DNA from: Thermoplasmata archaeon
GTDB taxonomy: Archaea > Thermoplasmatota > Thermoplasmata > Lutacidiplasmatales > UBA184
NCBI GenBank assembly: GCA_022749995.1
Contig: JAKIWO010000001.1
Span: 90,330 to 154,329 of the forward strand
Reading direction: 5' to 3'
DNA: 64,000 nt
This document shows positions 5,141-24,633 of this stretch, in pieces (the stretch's first letter is position 1; each line of letters opens with the position of its first letter). A program made the position numbers and the translations under genes. The notes beneath the pieces were generated by a model that saw only the letters and a program-made list of their open reading frames with translations, did no database searches and had not been told where the DNA came from.

Positions 5141-5538
5141 GGCGGCGGCTCGCTCACGACCGCCGCCTCGCGCCGGGCTCCCGAGCGCGAGGTATCCCCA
5201 TCGATCGCTTGGGCGAACTCCTCCGTTCGGAACGGGCGCGACAGCACGCGGGTTCGCCGCGGGGCTCCCTCGTCGGCCGGCGGAACCGGCTGGCCTCGAG
5301 GCTGAAGCAGGACCACGTCGGCGCTCGGCCAGCGGGCTCGGGCGCGGGCCACGATGTCGGTCCATCCTCCGGTCGTGCCGTCGATGAGCAGCACCGAAGG
5401 TGTCCGACCGGAGGGGACCGCGCCCAGGGCCGACGGCGAGTCGGCCTCGCCCATCACCTCGTGGTGATGCATCCGCAACAGTCCCTGGAGCGCGGCGCGG
5501 CTGTCGCGACTGCCACCGAACAGCACTACCCCGACCAT
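5137..5538 (-). CDS. Receiver(CheY)-like domain protein, atypical
   Basis: MVGVVLFGG ... VLLIDG ... DVVLL follows the beta-alpha pattern of a receiver domain, but the N-terminal acidic pair is absent. An alternative start lies at 5574. Confidence 0.4.
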   Translation of the reverse strand: MVGVVLFGGSRDSRAALQGLLRMHHHEVMGEADSPSALGAVPSGRTPSVLLIDGTTGGWTDIVARARARWPSADVVLLQPRGQPVPPADEGAPRRTRVLSRPFRTEEFAQAIDGDTSRSGARREAAVVSEPPP

Positions 5539-5773
5539 CGTTCGCGAAGCGCTAGGCGCGCGTCGGAGCGTCAAGCTTCCTACCCGACTCAGCGGAGTTC
5601 ATCCTCCGGACCCCCCCGAAACTATATAGTGTCCATAGGGCATGACGGAGTTGGCCTCGGGCCCCGGCGATCCGGTAGGGGCGGCACCGTCCACAAGGCC
5701 CCTCCCCGGACCGCCGGGAGCCATTTTCGTTTCCAGAGGAAGGTTTTAGGGCTCCCTCCGGCGAGCCGAGAGC

Positions 5774-6358
5774 GTGCGCGCGGCCGGTCGGGAGGGTCCC
5801 TACTCCCGGGATCACCGGCTGCTGAGCTTCCTCCATTTGCGCAGGGAGCGAGCCGCACCAGTACCGGCGCTGAGCGCGGCGTCCTACGCAGACCCCTCCA
5901 CGGCCCCCTCCCCACTCGCTCCCCTCCCGCCGGTATCGGTCCGCTCCGGCACGAGTTCTGCCGTGGGCACCGTGAGCTCTGCCGTCAGCACTTCCTCTCG
6001 GCGCAGCCCGGTCAGCGGTTCACCGGTGGTCGGCCCGGAATGTCCCACCTGTCGCCTCCCGACCTTGGCCACCGAGACCCCCGGACGGTTCGGCTGCCCG
6101 CTCTGCGGACATCATCTGGGCGCCCCGCAAGCCGCAGCCTCCGCCCCCGCCTCCCCCGCTCCGGCCCCGGGCTCACGGCGCTCCGAGGAGCTCTTGGCCG
6201 CCTGGCTCAGCGGGAGCGCGATCCCCTGCCCGAAGTGTCGCACGCCGCTCGGCCACGCCGGTCCGGGAGAGTTCGTCTGCCGGAAGTGCGGCGAGCGCCG
6301 CTCGGTCGGCGCTCTCGGAGTGGCCCCACCCCGGGGCTTGGGCGCGGCCGCGCCCTAG
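5774..6358 (+). CDS. Hypothetical protein with two C-terminal zinc-ribbon motifs
   Basis: Two CxxC-N-CxxC motifs: CPTC...CPLC and CPKC...CRKC. The N-terminal half is low-complexity. A TATA-like AGGTTTTAGG sits about 30 nt upstream. Confidence 0.45.
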   Translation: MRAAGREGPYSRDHRLLSFLHLRRERAAPVPALSAASYADPSTAPSPLAPLPPVSVRSGTSSAVGTVSSAVSTSSRRSPVSGSPVVGPECPTCRLPTLATETPGRFGCPLCGHHLGAPQAAASAPASPAPAPGSRRSEELLAAWLSGSAIPCPKCRTPLGHAGPGEFVCRKCGERRSVGALGVAPPRGLGAAAP

Positions 6359-22054: not shown

Positions 22055-22513
22055 TTAGAGGAACTTCTCGTCCGAGCGAGTGTAGGCGAGGTAGTCCTCG
22101 GCGTGGAAGTACAGCCCGAGCTCCCGCTCGGCCGAGGCCGGTGAGTCCGACGCATGCAGGAGGTTGGGGGTGATCGCGAGGCCGAAATCACCCCGGACGG
22201 TGCCGGGCGCTGCTACCTGCGGATTGGTGGCACCGGTGAGCAGCCGGGTGACGGCGATGGCGCTGCGCCCTTCGAGCGCGAGGGCGAGCACCGGGCCCGA
22301 GGTAATGTGCTGCACGAGACCGGGGTAGAACGGTTTCCCCTCGTGCTCGGCGTAGTGACGGGCCGCTAGCTCCGGGGTCACTTGGACCAACCGAACCGCG
22401 ACGACCTTGAGCCCCTTGAGCTCGAACCGGTCGAGGATCTTCCCCATCAGCCCACGCTTGACCCCGTCCGGCTTCACCAGCACGAGCGTCCGCTCGAGGG
22501 TCCCTTCCGCCAT
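22055..22513 (-). CDS. ndk: Nucleoside diphosphate kinase
   Basis: ERTLVLVKPDGV ... YPGLV..ITSGPV ... TVRGDF ... NLLHASDS (active-site His). Confidence 0.95.
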   Translation of the reverse strand: MAEGTLERTLVLVKPDGVKRGLMGKILDRFELKGLKVVAVRLVQVTPELAARHYAEHEGKPFYPGLVQHITSGPVLALALEGRSAIAVTRLLTGATNPQVAAPGTVRGDFGLAITPNLLHASDSPASAERELGLYFHAEDYLAYTRSDEKFL

Positions 22514-22585
22514 GGGCTCGGAGTTGTTCCCGCCGACAAAACGTTACCGGGCGGAACTTTTCCCTCCGACCGACCTCCCTCCTCG

Positions 22586-23392
22586 ATGCCGGTCGCGGCG
22601 GTCGCCGCCCAGGGGTTCACGTCGGCCGTGGGGGCGTACGACCGTTCCCGACCGGGATACTCCGACGCCGTCGTGCAGCGCTTGTTCGGCGAGCTCGGGC
22701 TCTCCCGCAGCTCCCGCATTCTGGAGCTCGCCGCAGGTACGGGCAAGTTCACCCGCGCCCTGGTCGCTGCGGGTGTTCGTCCGATCGCGGTCGAACCGCT
22801 CCGGCGATTCTCCGCTCCGCTGCGCGCTAGCTTCCCCGGTGTGCCGCTGGTGGCGGCCCTCGCCGAGTCGCTGCCGTTCGCGGACCACCGGTTCGACGCC
22901 GTGATGGCGGCGCAGGCCTTCCACTGGTTCGATCCGGAACGCGCACTGTGCGAGATCCACCGAGTGCTGCGAGCGGACGGCGGCCTTGCCCTACTCTGGA
23001 ACCAGCGGGACGACGCGCACCCGCTCCACGCGAACATGAGCCGGCTGCTCGAGGAGGTCGATCCGGGAGTTCCCCGTCACCGGACGGGCCAATGGCGGAA
23101 GGCCCTCGAACGGTCGAGGGGCTTCTCGGCCCTCTCGGATTTCCGCATCCCGTTCGAGCTCGAGATGGATCTGGAGGGGGTCGTCGACCGCGTCGCCTCG
23201 GTCAGCTTCGTTGCCGCCCTGCCCGAGGAACGCCGGACCGCACTGCTCGCCCAGGTCCGGGAGGCCGGCCTCGAGGACCCGGAGCTTCGCCGTCGGGGAC
23301 GGGTCCGATTGCCCTACCAGACCGAAGTGTACTGGGCTCGGACACTCCCCGCGGACGGCTACGCCGCCCGGACATCGCAACCCCCGCGGTAG
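22586..23392 (+). CDS. Class I SAM-dependent methyltransferase
   Basis: Motif I ILELAAGTGKFT and the post-I/II pattern FDAVMAAQAFHWF. The ORF was trimmed to the ATG at 22586. Confidence 0.8.
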   Translation: MPVAAVAAQGFTSAVGAYDRSRPGYSDAVVQRLFGELGLSRSSRILELAAGTGKFTRALVAAGVRPIAVEPLRRFSAPLRASFPGVPLVAALAESLPFADHRFDAVMAAQAFHWFDPERALCEIHRVLRADGGLALLWNQRDDAHPLHANMSRLLEEVDPGVPRHRTGQWRKALERSRGFSALSDFRIPFELEMDLEGVVDRVASVSFVAALPEERRTALLAQVREAGLEDPELRRRGRVRLPYQTEVYWARTLPADGYAARTSQPPR

Positions 23393-23871
23393 CGACAGCG
23401 CCGGCAGCGGGCGGGACTCGGCCGCGCCCGGCCGTCGTACGGGGCCTCAATCCCTGCGCGGAGCGAGAGGAGCTCGCGCCGAGCCGACGCATCCCAGGGG
23501 AGGTCGACCACCGTCCCGTCCCCGTACCTGAGACGCCCGAACGGCGGCGCGCGTCCCAAGTTCTCCTCAAGGAGCAGGCAGTACGCCCAGAGCTGGATCC
23601 GATGGGACCAAGGAGGTCCGCCGCGCGGGAGGGGCCGGCTCTTCCACTCCACCGGGATCCATCGCCCGTCGGGCAGTTCGCGAAGTTCGTCGGGACGACC
23701 GGTCAGCCGGTACCGCTCCGAACGCAGGACGGGTCCGGGCGCGGAAGGCAAGTCCACCGAGCGCAATCGACCGGGTCCCCGCCGAGACCGTCGCGCGGCA
23801 ACGAGGAAGAGCAGCCACAGGGCGACGCCCATCAGGAGGAGCGCCAGCAGCTCGAGGTCGAGGGGGTTCAT
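23359..23871 (-). CDS. Cas4/RecB-family PD-(D/E)xK nuclease, C-terminal part, with an N-terminal TM helix
   Basis: TM helix LLALLLMGVALWLLFLVAA, then GRPDEL...DGRWIPVEWKS (D..ExK), the QxxxY-type IQLWAYCLLLEE, and the terminal Fe-S Cys triad CRRCRYRGGC. Confidence 0.75.
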   Translation of the reverse strand: MNPLDLELLALLLMGVALWLLFLVAARRSRRGPGRLRSVDLPSAPGPVLRSERYRLTGRPDELRELPDGRWIPVEWKSRPLPRGGPPWSHRIQLWAYCLLLEENLGRAPPFGRLRYGDGTVVDLPWDASARRELLSLRAGIEAPYDGRARPSPARCRRCRYRGGCDVRAA

Positions 23872-24146
23872 CGGATCCCTCCGAAGTACAGCAGCAACAC
23901 GGCCAGCAGGAGCAGCGCGAGCGCGACGCCCGCGAGGCCGGCTCCGCTGCGTTCCTCGACCACTCGGCGCGAGAGTTCGCGCGTATGGTAGGCCCGGCCG
24001 CGTACTTCCTGGGCCAGATCCTCCGGGGCCGTCGGGATCCCGGTCGGGTGGTCCCGGTAGTACCACGCCCGTTCGCAGAACGCGTACTCCGCGAGCTCGC
24101 TGGCACTCCTCCAGGCCGGCGCGCCCGGGCCTGGCCGGCGCGGCAC
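23868..24146 (-). CDS. Cas4/RecB-family nuclease, N-terminal part, with a C-terminal TM helix
   Basis: SASELAEYAFCERAWYY carries the first Fe-S Cys motif of the Cas4/DUF83 type. GRAYH follows, then the TM helix AGLAGVALALLLLAVLLLYF. The stop overlaps the next start (ATGA). Confidence 0.65.
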   Translation of the reverse strand: MPRRPGPGAPAWRSASELAEYAFCERAWYYRDHPTGIPTAPEDLAQEVRGRAYHTRELSRRVVEERSGAGLAGVALALLLLAVLLLYFGGIR

Positions 24147-24207
24147 CTGCGCGCGAGCCGAGCGAGGGAGCTTCTACTTTCGTGCGTGGCGGAACGCAGC
24201 CGACGAC

Positions 24208-24633
24208 CTAGGGGGGCGGGGAGGCAGCGCTCTCGGCCGAGGCTTTGCGCGGAGCTCGGGCGCGGGCCGGCTTCTTCGCAGGAACTGCCGGCACGGGCGT
24301 CGTGTCTGCCGGCGTGGCCGGCTCCGTAGCCGACTTAGATGCGGGGCTCGGTGGCGCCTTCGAGGCTGCCGCGGGTGCGGGCGTTCGGGGTGACTTGGAA
24401 GCAGACGCCGGGACCGCCGGCGCGGCACGGGCCTGGGCGTGAGCGGCGGCGCGCTTGACCGCGTGGGCGTGGGTCCACTTGATCCGGTGGCCCACCCGGC
24501 CCAGTACGACCTGCTGCTTGCGGCAGGAGGAGGAGCAGAAATTGTAGACCGACCCGTCCCGGCGGACGTACATGAGCCCCGTGCCGGGCTCGATCTCACC
24601 GGCGCAGAAGGAGCACTGTCGCTTGAGCACCAT
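24208..24633 (-). CDS. rpl24e: 50S ribosomal protein L24e with a roughly 75-aa Ala/Pro-rich C-terminal extension
   Basis: The zinc-ribbon core is CSFCAGEIEPGTG...NFCSSSC, followed by a low-complexity tail (AAPAVPASASKSPRTPAPAAASKAPPSPAS...). Confidence 0.9.
   Translation of the reverse strand: MVLKRQCSFCAGEIEPGTGLMYVRRDGSVYNFCSSSCRKQQVVLGRVGHRIKWTHAHAVKRAAAHAQARAAPAVPASASKSPRTPAPAAASKAPPSPASKSATEPATPADTTPVPAVPAKKPARARAPRKASAESAASPPP

What the first reader, a model, noticed from the sequence alone, without database searches (positions are those of the whole stretch)
23359..24146. Cas4-family nuclease split into two overlapping ORFs, each with a transmembrane helix at the break
ORF 24146-23868 carries the N-terminal Cas4/DUF83 signature SASELAEYAFCERAWYY (first Fe-S cysteine) and GRAYH. 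It ends in a hydrophobic helix (AGLAGVALALLLLAVLLLYF). ORF 23871-23359 starts with another helix (LLALLLMGVALWLLFLVAA). It then carries the rest of the nuclease: GRPDEL...DGRWIPVEWKS (D...ExK), IQLWAYCLLLEE, and the terminal cysteine triad CRRCRYRGGC. The two ORFs overlap as ATGA, which is the same coupling seen in bona fide operons in this window. The four cysteines that bind one [4Fe-4S] cluster would therefore lie on two polypeptides, joined or anchored through a TM hairpin. No CRISPR array or other cas genes are in the window. Solo Cas4-like genes are known in archaea. I am not aware of a membrane-inserted or split form.
Basis: partly seen in the sequence, partly recalled or inferred. Interest (0 to 1): 0.6.

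Follow-up and report, generated by a model that had tools for sequence, protein, structure and literature searches.

The report
Two-gene membrane-anchored Cas4-type nuclease
Two small overlapping genes of a soil archaeon each encode one membrane helix plus half of a Cas4-type iron-sulfur DNA nuclease; this split is real and conserved, belongs to a phylum-wide family of membrane-embedded, non-CRISPR Cas4 enzymes that I could not find described, and its cellular job is unknown.

Summary
ORF1 (24146-23868, 92 aa) and ORF2 (23871-23359, 170 aa) overlap by ATGA. ORF1 ends in one hydrophobic helix and ORF2 starts with one. Together they make exactly one Cas4 domain.

The split is not a sequencing error or a pseudogene:
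- The same pair occurs in 23 of 24 sampled genomes of the window's family and in 73 of 78 evaluable named loci, mostly acid-soil and peat Thermoplasmata MAGs.
- The first cysteine was kept in every N-half aligned. The catalytic residues and the Cx2Cx5C triad are invariant in the C-half alignments.

In sister lineages the same protein is one polypeptide with 2, 4 or 8-9 membrane helices inserted at the same point of the fold. Such a C-domain was found in 145 of 201 Thermoplasmatota genomes. Fission inside the helical hairpin happened at least twice.

No cas genes or CRISPR array are nearby, and no Cas1 was found in this 87%-complete genome.

Best reading: a two-subunit, membrane-tethered solo-Cas4 nuclease on the cytoplasmic face, whose [4Fe-4S] ligands and metal site are shared between the chains. 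The biological role is unknown.

This scan has reached the same reading before on other genomes (44 earlier notes). I found no paper that describes this architecture. I rate it a new variant of a known kind.

The parts
24171..24181 (-). A/T-rich TATA-like box (GAAAGTAGAAG), about 25-35 nt upstream of the ORF1 start. Inferred own promoter, giving a leaderless transcript.
   Evidence: A comparable A/T-rich box lies at the same distance upstream of the N-half start in most of the 15 family loci inspected, all in about 70% G+C DNA. Inferred only; no transcript data.
23868..24146 (-). ORF1, the N-half subunit (92 aa). It is the N-terminal Cas4 segment with the first Fe-S cysteine and the conserved His, followed by one C-terminal membrane helix.
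   Evidence: Homologous stand-alone small ORFs lie upstream of every split C-half. The N-half profile finds 224 representative clusters, and nearly all of the best 150 are 67-130 aa.
24075..24077 (-). Codon of Cys24, the first [4Fe-4S] ligand by homology.
   Evidence: Kept in every N-half aligned and in the N-termini of the unsplit relatives. In one search it aligns with the Cas4 N-terminal Cys, but that alignment is weak.
23985..23987 (-). Codon of His54 (GRAYH). It is equivalent by position to the His that ligates the catalytic metal in SSO0001.
   Evidence: The G..(Y)H motif is nearly invariant. The role of His62 in 4IC1 is quoted from PMC13621843. The equivalence itself is inferred.
23883..23939 (-). 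Transmembrane helix of ORF1 (residues 70-88, GLAGVALALLLLAVLLLYF).
   Evidence: Hydropathy 2.66 over 19 residues. A hydrophobic tail is present in all N-halves.
23878..23882 (-). GGAGG Shine-Dalgarno-like element, 6 nt upstream of the ORF2 ATG and inside the ORF1 coding sequence.
   Evidence: Read from the sequence. A G-rich SD-like element precedes a candidate C-half start in 20 of 28 split loci. This is weak evidence in G+C-rich DNA.
23868..23871 (-). ATGA stop/start overlap. ORF2 lies in the -1 frame relative to ORF1.
   Evidence: The same frame relation holds in 28 of 28 family loci and in 70 of 73 split named loci, with overlaps of 1 to 46 nt in the 28 family loci.
23359..23871 (-). ORF2, the C-half subunit (170 aa). 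It is one N-terminal membrane helix followed by the RecB/Cas4 catalytic core and the Cys triad.
   Evidence: The AlphaFold2 model has pLDDT 92.2. The top Foldseek hits are Cas4 8D3L, Cas4-Cas1 7MI5, MGME1, SSO0001 and AdnAB.
23794..23850 (-). Transmembrane helix of ORF2 (residues 8-26, LLALLLMGVALWLLFLVAA), followed by the RRSRRGPGR positive patch on the predicted cytoplasmic side.
   Evidence: Hydropathy 2.80. AlphaFold2 models a helix over residues 3-29.
23641..23691 (-). Catalytic PD-(D/E)XK motif: D61 (GRPD) to E75-W-K77.
   Evidence: Invariant in alignments A1, A3 and A4.
23581..23595 (-). QxxxY motif (Q93-L-W-A-Y97) of RecB/Cas4 nucleases.
   Evidence: Invariant in A1 and A3.
23377..23406 (-). 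C156-x2-C159-x5-C165, the three C-terminal [4Fe-4S] ligands by homology.
   Evidence: Invariant in A1, A3 and A4. It aligns with the Cas4 C-terminal cysteines.

Best explanation
The two ORFs are a conserved two-gene operon. It encodes the two subunits of one membrane-tethered nuclease of the Cas4 (RecB-like PD-(D/E)XK, [4Fe-4S]) family that has no CRISPR role, i.e. a 'solo-Cas4'.

The ancestral protein, still present in sister lineages, is a single chain. In it a bundle of 2, 4 or 8-9 membrane helices is inserted between the N-terminal helical segment (first Cys, metal-binding His) and the catalytic core. In the window's family the insert is a two-helix hairpin, and the gene has been cut in the external loop of that hairpin.

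ORF1 is predicted to be a tail-anchored protein with its N-terminus in the cytoplasm. ORF2 is predicted to be a signal-anchored protein with a short external N-terminus and a cytoplasmic nuclease core. ORF2 is translated from its own start codon by coupling to ORF1.

I infer that the two helices pair in the membrane and bring the soluble parts together on the cytoplasmic face. The Fe-S cluster (1 Cys from ORF1, 3 from ORF2) and the metal site (His from ORF1; Asp, Glu and Lys from ORF2) would then form only in the heterodimer.

The assembled enzyme most likely cuts or trims DNA ends next to the membrane. Whether that serves repair, uptake of DNA or defence against incoming DNA is not known.

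Shown here: the gene structure, its conservation, the homology, the fold of ORF2 and the absence of cas genes. Inferred: the topology, heterodimer assembly, a shared cluster, the substrate and the role.
For: - Together the ORFs make one collinear Cas4 domain.
- The ORF2 model has pLDDT 92.2 and its best fold matches are Cas4 structures. The unsplit relative also matches Cas4.
- Conservation of the split: 23 of 24 family genomes have a strong C-half match. All 28 distinct family loci examined have a separate N-half ORF. In the named loci, 73 of 78 evaluable ones are split. The N-half profile finds 224 representative clusters, and the best 150 are nearly all 67-130 aa.
- Selection on function: the N-half Cys was kept in every N-half aligned. 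D61, E75, K77, Q93, Y97 and the three C-terminal Cys are invariant in the C-half alignments.
- Unsplit relatives have the helices at the same insertion point. They pass the PF01930 and TIGR00372 cut-offs.
- Separate translation: a start codon overlaps or abuts the N-half stop in 28 of 28 loci, and none has a slippery heptamer. Other lineages use other junctions: frame +1 in L049, L051 and L052, and an in-frame TAG|GTG in L145.
- At least two independent fissions appear on the tree.
- Charge distribution fits both soluble parts lying in the cytoplasm (sequence).
- No Cas1 was found in the genome, and no cas neighbours were seen.
Against: - Nothing here shows that the two proteins are made, inserted into the membrane or bind each other. 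No complex model could be run.
- The model of the unsplit relative is only moderate (pLDDT 67), and its N-terminal segment is not confidently docked.
- ORF2 alone is below the curated cut-offs of PF01930 (19.6 against 22.7) and TIGR00372 (44.4 against 65). Even the composite stays below TIGR00372 (56.8).
- Papers quoted report that the Fe-S cluster is dispensable for cleavage in M. mazei Solo-Cas4 and in Leptospira Cas4. ORF2 might therefore act without ORF1.
- One genome of the same genus (G005, 97% complete) has no pair in its assembly, so the genes may not be essential.
- No conserved neighbour points to a pathway.
Confidence: 0.75

Rival explanations
1. ORF2 is a self-sufficient membrane-anchored nuclease. 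ORF1 is a separate small membrane protein, for example a regulator or inhibitor, that does not complete the fold or the Fe-S cluster.
For: - All PD-(D/E)XK catalytic carboxylates and the Lys lie on ORF2.
- ORF2 folds confidently on its own.
- Published work reports that some Cas4 enzymes cut DNA without the cluster (PMC13621843 citing Rentz 2025; PMC8610317 abstract).
Against: - ORF1 is homologous, residue for residue, to the N-terminal segment of the unsplit proteins, with the Cys kept throughout and the His nearly so.
- Three cysteines alone do not normally hold a [4Fe-4S] cluster (established knowledge).
- The pair stays adjacent and coupled in every split lineage.
Confidence: 0.1
2. A single fused polypeptide is made by programmed -1 ribosomal frameshifting near the ORF1 stop codon. 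The apparent split would then exist only at the DNA level.
For: ORF2 is in the -1 frame in 28 of 28 family loci and in 70 of 73 split named loci. The ORF2 frame is open upstream of its ATG. A fused two-helix product would be topologically sensible, and natural unsplit two-helix forms exist (L062, L064-L066).
Against: - No X XXY YYZ slippery heptamer lies in the last 60 nt of any of the 28 N-half genes.
- Every locus has an ATG, GTG or TTG at the junction, often with an SD-like element.
- Overlap length varies from 1 to 46 nt in the 28 family loci.
- Other split lineages use the +1 frame or an in-frame stop followed by GTG.
- The constant frame is explained by descent from one fission event and by the locking effect of overlapping reading frames.
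Confidence: 0.03
3. The split is a local artefact: an assembly frameshift, or a recently broken pseudogene of an ordinary Cas4.
For: High-G+C MAG assemblies do contain indel errors. One long-read MAG (L096) shows an aberrant fused frame, and another (L126) shows a decayed N-half. A decayed paralogue also exists in G009 (L041).
Against: The same two-ORF structure, with intact motifs, is seen in independent assemblies from many studies and down to about 50% protein identity. No fused form appeared among the 120 best hits to a fused query.
Confidence: 0.02

Closest known systems
Canonical Cas4 (PF01930/DUF83, TIGR00372, COG1468). Structures: SSO0001 4IC1, Pcal_0546 4R5Q, type I-C Cas4 8D3L, Cas4-Cas1 7MI4/7MI5.
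   Same: - The RecB-like PD-(D/E)XK core with D...ExK and QxxxY.
- An N-terminal Cys plus a C-terminal Cx2Cx5C.
- The N-terminal G..H motif.
- These are the best fold matches, and the profile alignment is end to end.
   Different: - Canonical Cas4 is one soluble chain of about 180-220 aa and is usually encoded next to cas1 and cas2.
- Here the fold is interrupted by membrane helices and encoded by two genes.
- There are no cas genes nearby, and no Cas1 in the genome.
- ORF2 alone is below the curated Cas4 cut-offs.
Archaeal solo-Cas4 (Hudaiberdiev et al. 2017, PMC5704561; M. mazei Solo-Cas4, Rentz et al. 2025, PMC12501428)
   Same: - Encoded outside cas loci.
- Mostly vertically inherited within lineages.
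- Present in genomes without CRISPR-Cas.
- Role unknown; repair or defence has been proposed.
   Different: The described solo-Cas4 proteins are soluble. Neither paper contains the word 'transmembrane'. One has no use of 'membrane' at all, and the other has only an unrelated use in a figure legend.
Unsplit membrane-embedded Cas4-like proteins of Thermoplasmatota. These are database entries auto-named 'CRISPR-associated protein Cas4', for example from Euryarchaeota archaeon RBG_13_57_23 and Methanomassiliicoccus MAGs.
   Same: Same family and same insertion point of the helices. The N- and C-terminal motifs are the same.
   Different: These are one polypeptide of about 270-600 aa with 2, 4 or 8-9 helices. 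The window has two genes with one helix each. The window's clade also lacks the HRNH motif before the Cys triad and has PYDGRA instead.
Fe-S ('iron staple') nuclease domains of AddB and AdnAB, and the related MGME1, Exo5 and ACE1 nucleases
   Same: Same superfamily fold. These are lower-ranking fold matches. As established knowledge of AddB and Cas4, the cluster ties the N-terminal segment to the C-terminal end of the domain.
   Different: In those proteins the domain is part of helicase-nuclease machines or of soluble enzymes. None is membrane-inserted or split at this point.

Membership tests
Cas4 family (PF01930 / TIGR00372 / COG1468) | RecB-type catalytic motifs D...ExK and QxxxY | tested here: met
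   D61, E75, K77, Q93 and Y97 of ORF2 are invariant in A1, A3 and A4.
Cas4 family (PF01930 / TIGR00372 / COG1468) | Four cysteines: one N-terminal plus a C-terminal Cx2Cx5C | tested here: met
   C24 lies on ORF1, and C156, C159 and C165 on ORF2. All are conserved, but they sit on two polypeptides. Cluster binding itself was not tested.
Cas4 family (PF01930 / TIGR00372 / COG1468) | Profile score over the curated cut-off | tested here: inconclusive
   - ORF2 alone: PF01930 19.6 against 22.7, and TIGR00372 44.4 against 65.
- Composite without the helices: PF01930 24.1 (passes), TIGR00372 56.8 (fails).
- PF12705 PDDEXK_1 passes (36.2 against 22).
- The unsplit relatives L017 and L006 pass both Cas4 models; L016 passes PF01930 only (TIGR00372 63.5 against 65).
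Cas4 family (PF01930 / TIGR00372 / COG1468) | Cas4 three-dimensional fold | tested here: met
   The ORF2 model (pLDDT 92.2) has Cas4 as its top Foldseek hits: 8D3L at E 5e-6, 7MI5 and 4IC1.
CRISPR-associated Cas4 (adaptation module) | Encoded next to cas1/cas2 or a CRISPR array | tested here: not met
   The neighbours are L7Ae, S28e, L24e, a methyltransferase, NDK and Sua5. No Cas1 (PF01867) was found in the 87%-complete genome.
Solo-Cas4 (Hudaiberdiev et al. 2017) | A Cas4 homologue outside cas loci that follows the organismal lineages | tested here: met
   The context is free of cas genes. The C-domain tree groups by genome family.
Programmed -1 frameshift genes | Slippery heptamer X XXY YYZ in the overlap | tested here: not met
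   None of the 28 split loci has one.
Integral membrane protein | Hydrophobic helix of about 19 or more residues, with flanking charges obeying the positive-inside rule | tested here: met
   Hydropathy is 2.66 and 2.80 and the ORF2 model has a helix over residues 3-29. RRSRRGPGR follows the ORF2 helix. No dedicated topology predictor was available, and localisation was not tested.

The most novel reading that the evidence does not exclude
The membrane-embedded solo-Cas4 family is a housekeeping 'gatekeeper' nuclease of Thermoplasmatota that processes or destroys DNA as it crosses the cytoplasmic membrane (virus injection, conjugation or uptake). In the split forms, the catalytic site and the Fe-S cluster exist only after two separately inserted membrane subunits meet. 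That would make nuclease activity depend on membrane assembly. It would be a natural 'split enzyme' whose complementation is driven by helix-helix pairing in the membrane.
Probability: 0.2. Interest if true: 0.8.

Novelty: new variant of a known kind. Interest (0 to 1): 0.6.

Why it matters
Cas4 enzymes outside CRISPR loci are common in archaea, and their role is an open question. This finding bears on that question in three ways.

- **A location.** In one whole phylum the solo-Cas4 is built into the membrane, so the search for its role narrows to DNA transactions at the cell envelope.
- **A natural split enzyme.** An iron-sulfur nuclease has been cut into two genes at least twice in evolution, at the loop of a membrane hairpin. 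It is a ready-made test of whether membrane helices can hold a split enzyme and a shared metal cluster together.
- **Annotation.** Databases label the C-halves and the unsplit forms 'CRISPR-associated Cas4'. That wrongly suggests CRISPR immunity in genomes where no Cas1 is found. The 90-aa N-halves carry no Pfam domain or name in the three related loci inspected.

Tried and rejected
- **Reads.** Conservation across assemblies replaces this check.
- **Complex model.** I did not attempt a model of the two halves. The structure tool takes one natural sequence only, so I folded a natural unsplit relative and ORF2 instead.
- **Fused form in the window's clade.** A search with a fused ORF1+ORF2 query found only C-halves among the 120 best hits. 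The longer hits, P0022 and P0042, are out-of-frame N-terminal extensions in G+C-rich DNA.
- **Locus scans.** A smaller alignment worked.
- **Functional link to the ribosomal cluster.** Rejected. The L7Ae-S28e-L24e...NDK position holds only in part of the family, and unsplit forms sit elsewhere.
- **Conserved partner gene.** All-against-all comparison of flanking ORFs from 28 loci found none beyond a PF14811 'TPD' gene in a few lineages.
- **Programmed frameshift.** Rejected.
- **Literature.** Three full-text searches and two key Cas4 papers gave no description of a membrane-inserted or split Cas4. The library lacks most subscription journals, so this is not proof that none exists.
Full report
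**1. What is in the sequence**

On the minus strand, ORF1 (24146-23868, GTG start, 92 aa) and ORF2 (23871-23359, ATG start, 170 aa) overlap by ATGA.

ORF1 reads ...SASELAEYAFC24ERAWYY...GRAYH54... and ends in GLAGVALALLLLAVLLLYF-GGIR. ORF2 begins MNPLDLE-LLALLLMGVALWLLFLVAA-RRSRRGPGR. It then carries GRPD61, E75-W-K77, S89-H90..Q93xxxY97 and C156-x2-C159-x5-C165.

Hydropathy gives one strong transmembrane segment in each ORF, scoring 2.66 and 2.80 over 19 residues.

The profile matches are collinear and do not overlap. ORF1 covers positions 3-43 of PDDEXK_1 and 3-47 of cas4 TIGR00372. ORF2 covers 120-246 and 60-178 of the same models. I joined ORF1 residues 1-66 to ORF2 residues 30-170, leaving the two helices out. 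This composite aligns end to end with TIGR00372 (3-178 of 180, 56.8 bits) and with PF01930 (4-158 of 160, 24.1 bits, over its cut-off). The two ORFs therefore add up to exactly one Cas4 domain, with a two-helix hairpin inserted after the N-terminal helical segment.

**2. The split is real and conserved**

A database search with ORF2 gave 419 relatives. The best 120 are almost all 165-178 aa and come from Thermoplasmata metagenome bins. The two long hits are out-of-frame N-terminal extensions, not fusions.

In three unrelated contigs the gene upstream is a separate ORF of 79-87 aa. It carries the same SASDLAEYAYCPRAWYY...G.RYH...hydrophobic-tail pattern.

Within the window's taxonomic family, 23 of 24 other genomes have a strong match. 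The exception is G005, of the same genus and 97% complete, which has only a different, soluble Cas4-like gene. All 28 distinct family loci I fetched have the separate N-half ORF.

A scan of one genome per species returned 80 named loci. Of these, 73 are split, 5 are not and 2 are cut by contig ends. The record titles include Thermoplasmata archaeon UBA184, Candidatus Lutacidiplasma silvani, and many acid-soil and peat bins.

A profile of four N-halves, run against 1.84 billion representative proteins, finds 224 clusters. Nearly all of the best 150 are stand-alone proteins of 67-130 aa. A query made of the fused pair found no fused relative among its 120 best hits.

The N-half cysteine was kept in every N-half aligned, and the His nearly so. 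The catalytic residues and the Cys triad of the C-half are invariant. Together this excludes a sequencing error or a pseudogene.

**3. Two genes, not a frameshifted one**

In the window's family the C-half is always in the -1 frame (28 of 28 loci). The overlap varies from 1 to 46 nt.

Every locus has ATG, GTG or TTG at the junction, and none has a slippery heptamer. In 20 of 28 loci a G-rich Shine-Dalgarno-like element precedes the start. In the window this is GGAGG, 6 nt upstream. This last point is weak evidence in 70% G+C DNA.

Other split lineages use other geometries: the +1 frame in L049, L051 and L052, and an in-frame TAG followed directly by GTG in L145.

The constant frame within the family is best explained by descent from one fission event. 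Once two reading frames overlap, an indel at the junction would damage one of them.

An A/T-rich, TATA-like box lies about 25-35 nt upstream of the N-half start in most family loci inspected. This suggests the pair has its own, probably leaderless, transcript. That is inference only.

**4. The membrane insert is older than the split**

In sister families of the same order and class, the homologue is one ORF of about 325-340 aa. It has the same N-terminal motif (SAxDLEKYxYCPLSWWL..G..H), four hydrophobic helices, and then the same catalytic domain. Of three such proteins scanned, all pass the PF01930 cut-off and two pass TIGR00372; the third scores 63.5 against 65. A search with one of them gave 1088 relatives. 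The sources that name them call them 'CRISPR-associated protein Cas4'.

A C-domain profile hits 145 of 201 sampled genomes of the phylum, and 98 of 139 high-quality ones. It hits none of 19 genomes in family f8.

Loci from further families show several forms:
- unsplit with two helices (L062, L064, L065, L066);
- unsplit with four helices;
- unsplit with 8-9 helices (L057 at 510 aa, L059 at 596 aa);
- one form without helices (L053, 207 aa);
- more split pairs (family f31; family f15, genus g35; and second copies in G116 and G037).

On a maximum-likelihood tree of the C-domains, the window's family forms a clade with 100/100 support. It is sister (98/92) to unsplit forms from three other families. 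The other split pairs lie in a different, supported group (97/93). Fission at the hairpin therefore happened at least twice.

Two bins labelled as bacteria (Chloroflexota L145, Pyrinomonadaceae L144) also carry split pairs on short contigs. I did not test whether these contigs are truly bacterial.

**5. Structure**

ORF2 was folded with 55 homologues. The model has pLDDT 92.2, with a long N-terminal helix (residues 3-29) followed by an alpha/beta core. Its best Foldseek matches are type I-C Cas4 (8D3L, E 5e-6), Cas4-Cas1 (7MI5), MGME1, SSO0001 (4IC1), AdnAB and ACE1.

An unsplit four-helix relative folds less confidently overall (pLDDT 67). Its nuclease domain scores 80-93, and residues 58-191 form four long helices. 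Its best matches are also Cas4 structures. In that model the N-terminal segment is not confidently docked, so the model does not by itself show the cluster geometry.

**6. How it most likely works**

In SSO0001 the catalytic metal is held by His62, Asp99, residue 113 (written Asp113 in the quoted text) and Lys115 (text of PMC13621843). In Cas4 and AddB the four cysteines tie the N-terminal segment to the C-terminal end of the domain (established knowledge).

By position, ORF1 supplies the His and the first Cys. ORF2 supplies the carboxylates, the Lys, QxxxY and three Cys. Neither product should be a complete enzyme alone.

The charge pattern fits both soluble parts lying in the cytoplasm and the cut ends lying outside. 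ORF1 has ...RELSRRVVEER before its helix. ORF2 has an acidic MNPLDLE before its helix and RRSRRGPGR after it.

I therefore propose a heterodimer held together by the two helices in the membrane. It would rebuild the Cas4 fold on the inner face of the membrane and act on DNA there. Assembly, cluster sharing, activity and substrate are all inferred.

**7. Context and role**

In the window and in several genera of the family, the pair sits between rpl7ae-rps28e-rpl24e and a convergent methyltransferase, followed by ndk and a Sua5/YrdC gene. Other genera of the family and all unsplit forms sit elsewhere. One clade of unsplit forms follows a PF14811 'TPD' gene near glmS.

No neighbour is shared across the 28 loci compared. 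No cas gene is nearby, and Cas1 was not found in the 87%-complete genome.

The gene thus behaves like the vertically inherited 'solo-Cas4' of Hudaiberdiev et al. 2017, for which repair or defence roles have been proposed but not shown. The membrane location is the only new functional clue.

**8. Comparison with what is known, and novelty**

By motifs and fold this is a member of the Cas4 family. It is not a CRISPR-associated Cas4.

Two features set it apart from described Cas4, solo-Cas4, AddB, AdnAB, MGME1, Exo5 and ACE1: the transmembrane insertion, and the two-gene split within it. I found neither feature in the searchable literature. That library lacks most subscription journals.

Earlier notes of this same scan reached the same reading on other genomes. 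I saw them only after my own analysis. They are not independent evidence. Their lead that bacteria also carry split pairs was partly checked here.

**9. Verdict**

I rate the finding a new variant of a known kind. The interest is moderate to high: the architecture is unexpected and directly testable, but the biological role remains unknown.

Noticed in passing
window 22382-23392 (+) against 23359-23871 (-): The convergent class-I SAM methyltransferase gene overlaps the 3' end of ORF2 by about 34 nt. The same methyltransferase follows the pair in many, but not all, family loci.
   Followed up: partly
window 24208-24633 (-): The ribosomal protein L24e gene directly upstream has a long Ala/Pro-rich C-terminal tail (141 aa in total). 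In some related loci no Pfam domain is recorded for the product of this gene.
   Followed up: no
L096 (OY970259.1, long-read Thermoplasmata MAG), about 1040-1880: This is the only family-type locus where the N- and C-parts lie in one open frame (279 aa). The first helix is replaced by a charged stretch that looks like out-of-frame sequence, which leaves a single helix. It is either an assembly indel or a broken gene. L126, from the same kind of assembly, has a decayed N-half.
   Followed up: partly
L041 (G009:C54) and L042 (G024:C92): These are second copies of the pair in one genus. The L041 copy has lost the N-terminal Cys segment and the C-terminal Cys triad, so it is probably a decaying paralogue.
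   Followed up: partly
L053 (G060:C2), 207-aa ORF: This is a helix-free, unsplit, soluble member. On the tree it nests as sister to the split pairs of family f31. That suggests either loss of the helices with re-fusion, or repeated fission around it.
   Followed up: partly
L145 (Chloroflexota-labelled MAG contig, 5.7 kb) and L144 (Pyrinomonadaceae-labelled, 9.8 kb): These are split pairs on contigs binned as bacteria. In L145 the two genes are in the same frame, separated only by TAG and then GTG. Whether the contigs are truly bacterial was not checked.
   Followed up: partly
L043 (G005:C65), 285-aa open frame: The one genome of the window's genus without the pair carries a different, soluble Cas4-like protein with a long insert between the N-terminal Cys segment and the core.
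   Followed up: no
L044-L046 at 5200-5976, and L006, L008, L140: A PF14811 'TPD' protein of unknown function lies directly upstream of, and co-oriented with, the unsplit four-helix gene in several families, including Methanomassiliicoccus.
   Followed up: partly
own genome, G000:C56:26643-27416: The genome also encodes a full-length PDDEXK_1 protein elsewhere (E 1.3e-39, open frame 393 aa), with a second weak hit 9 kb further on.
   Followed up: no
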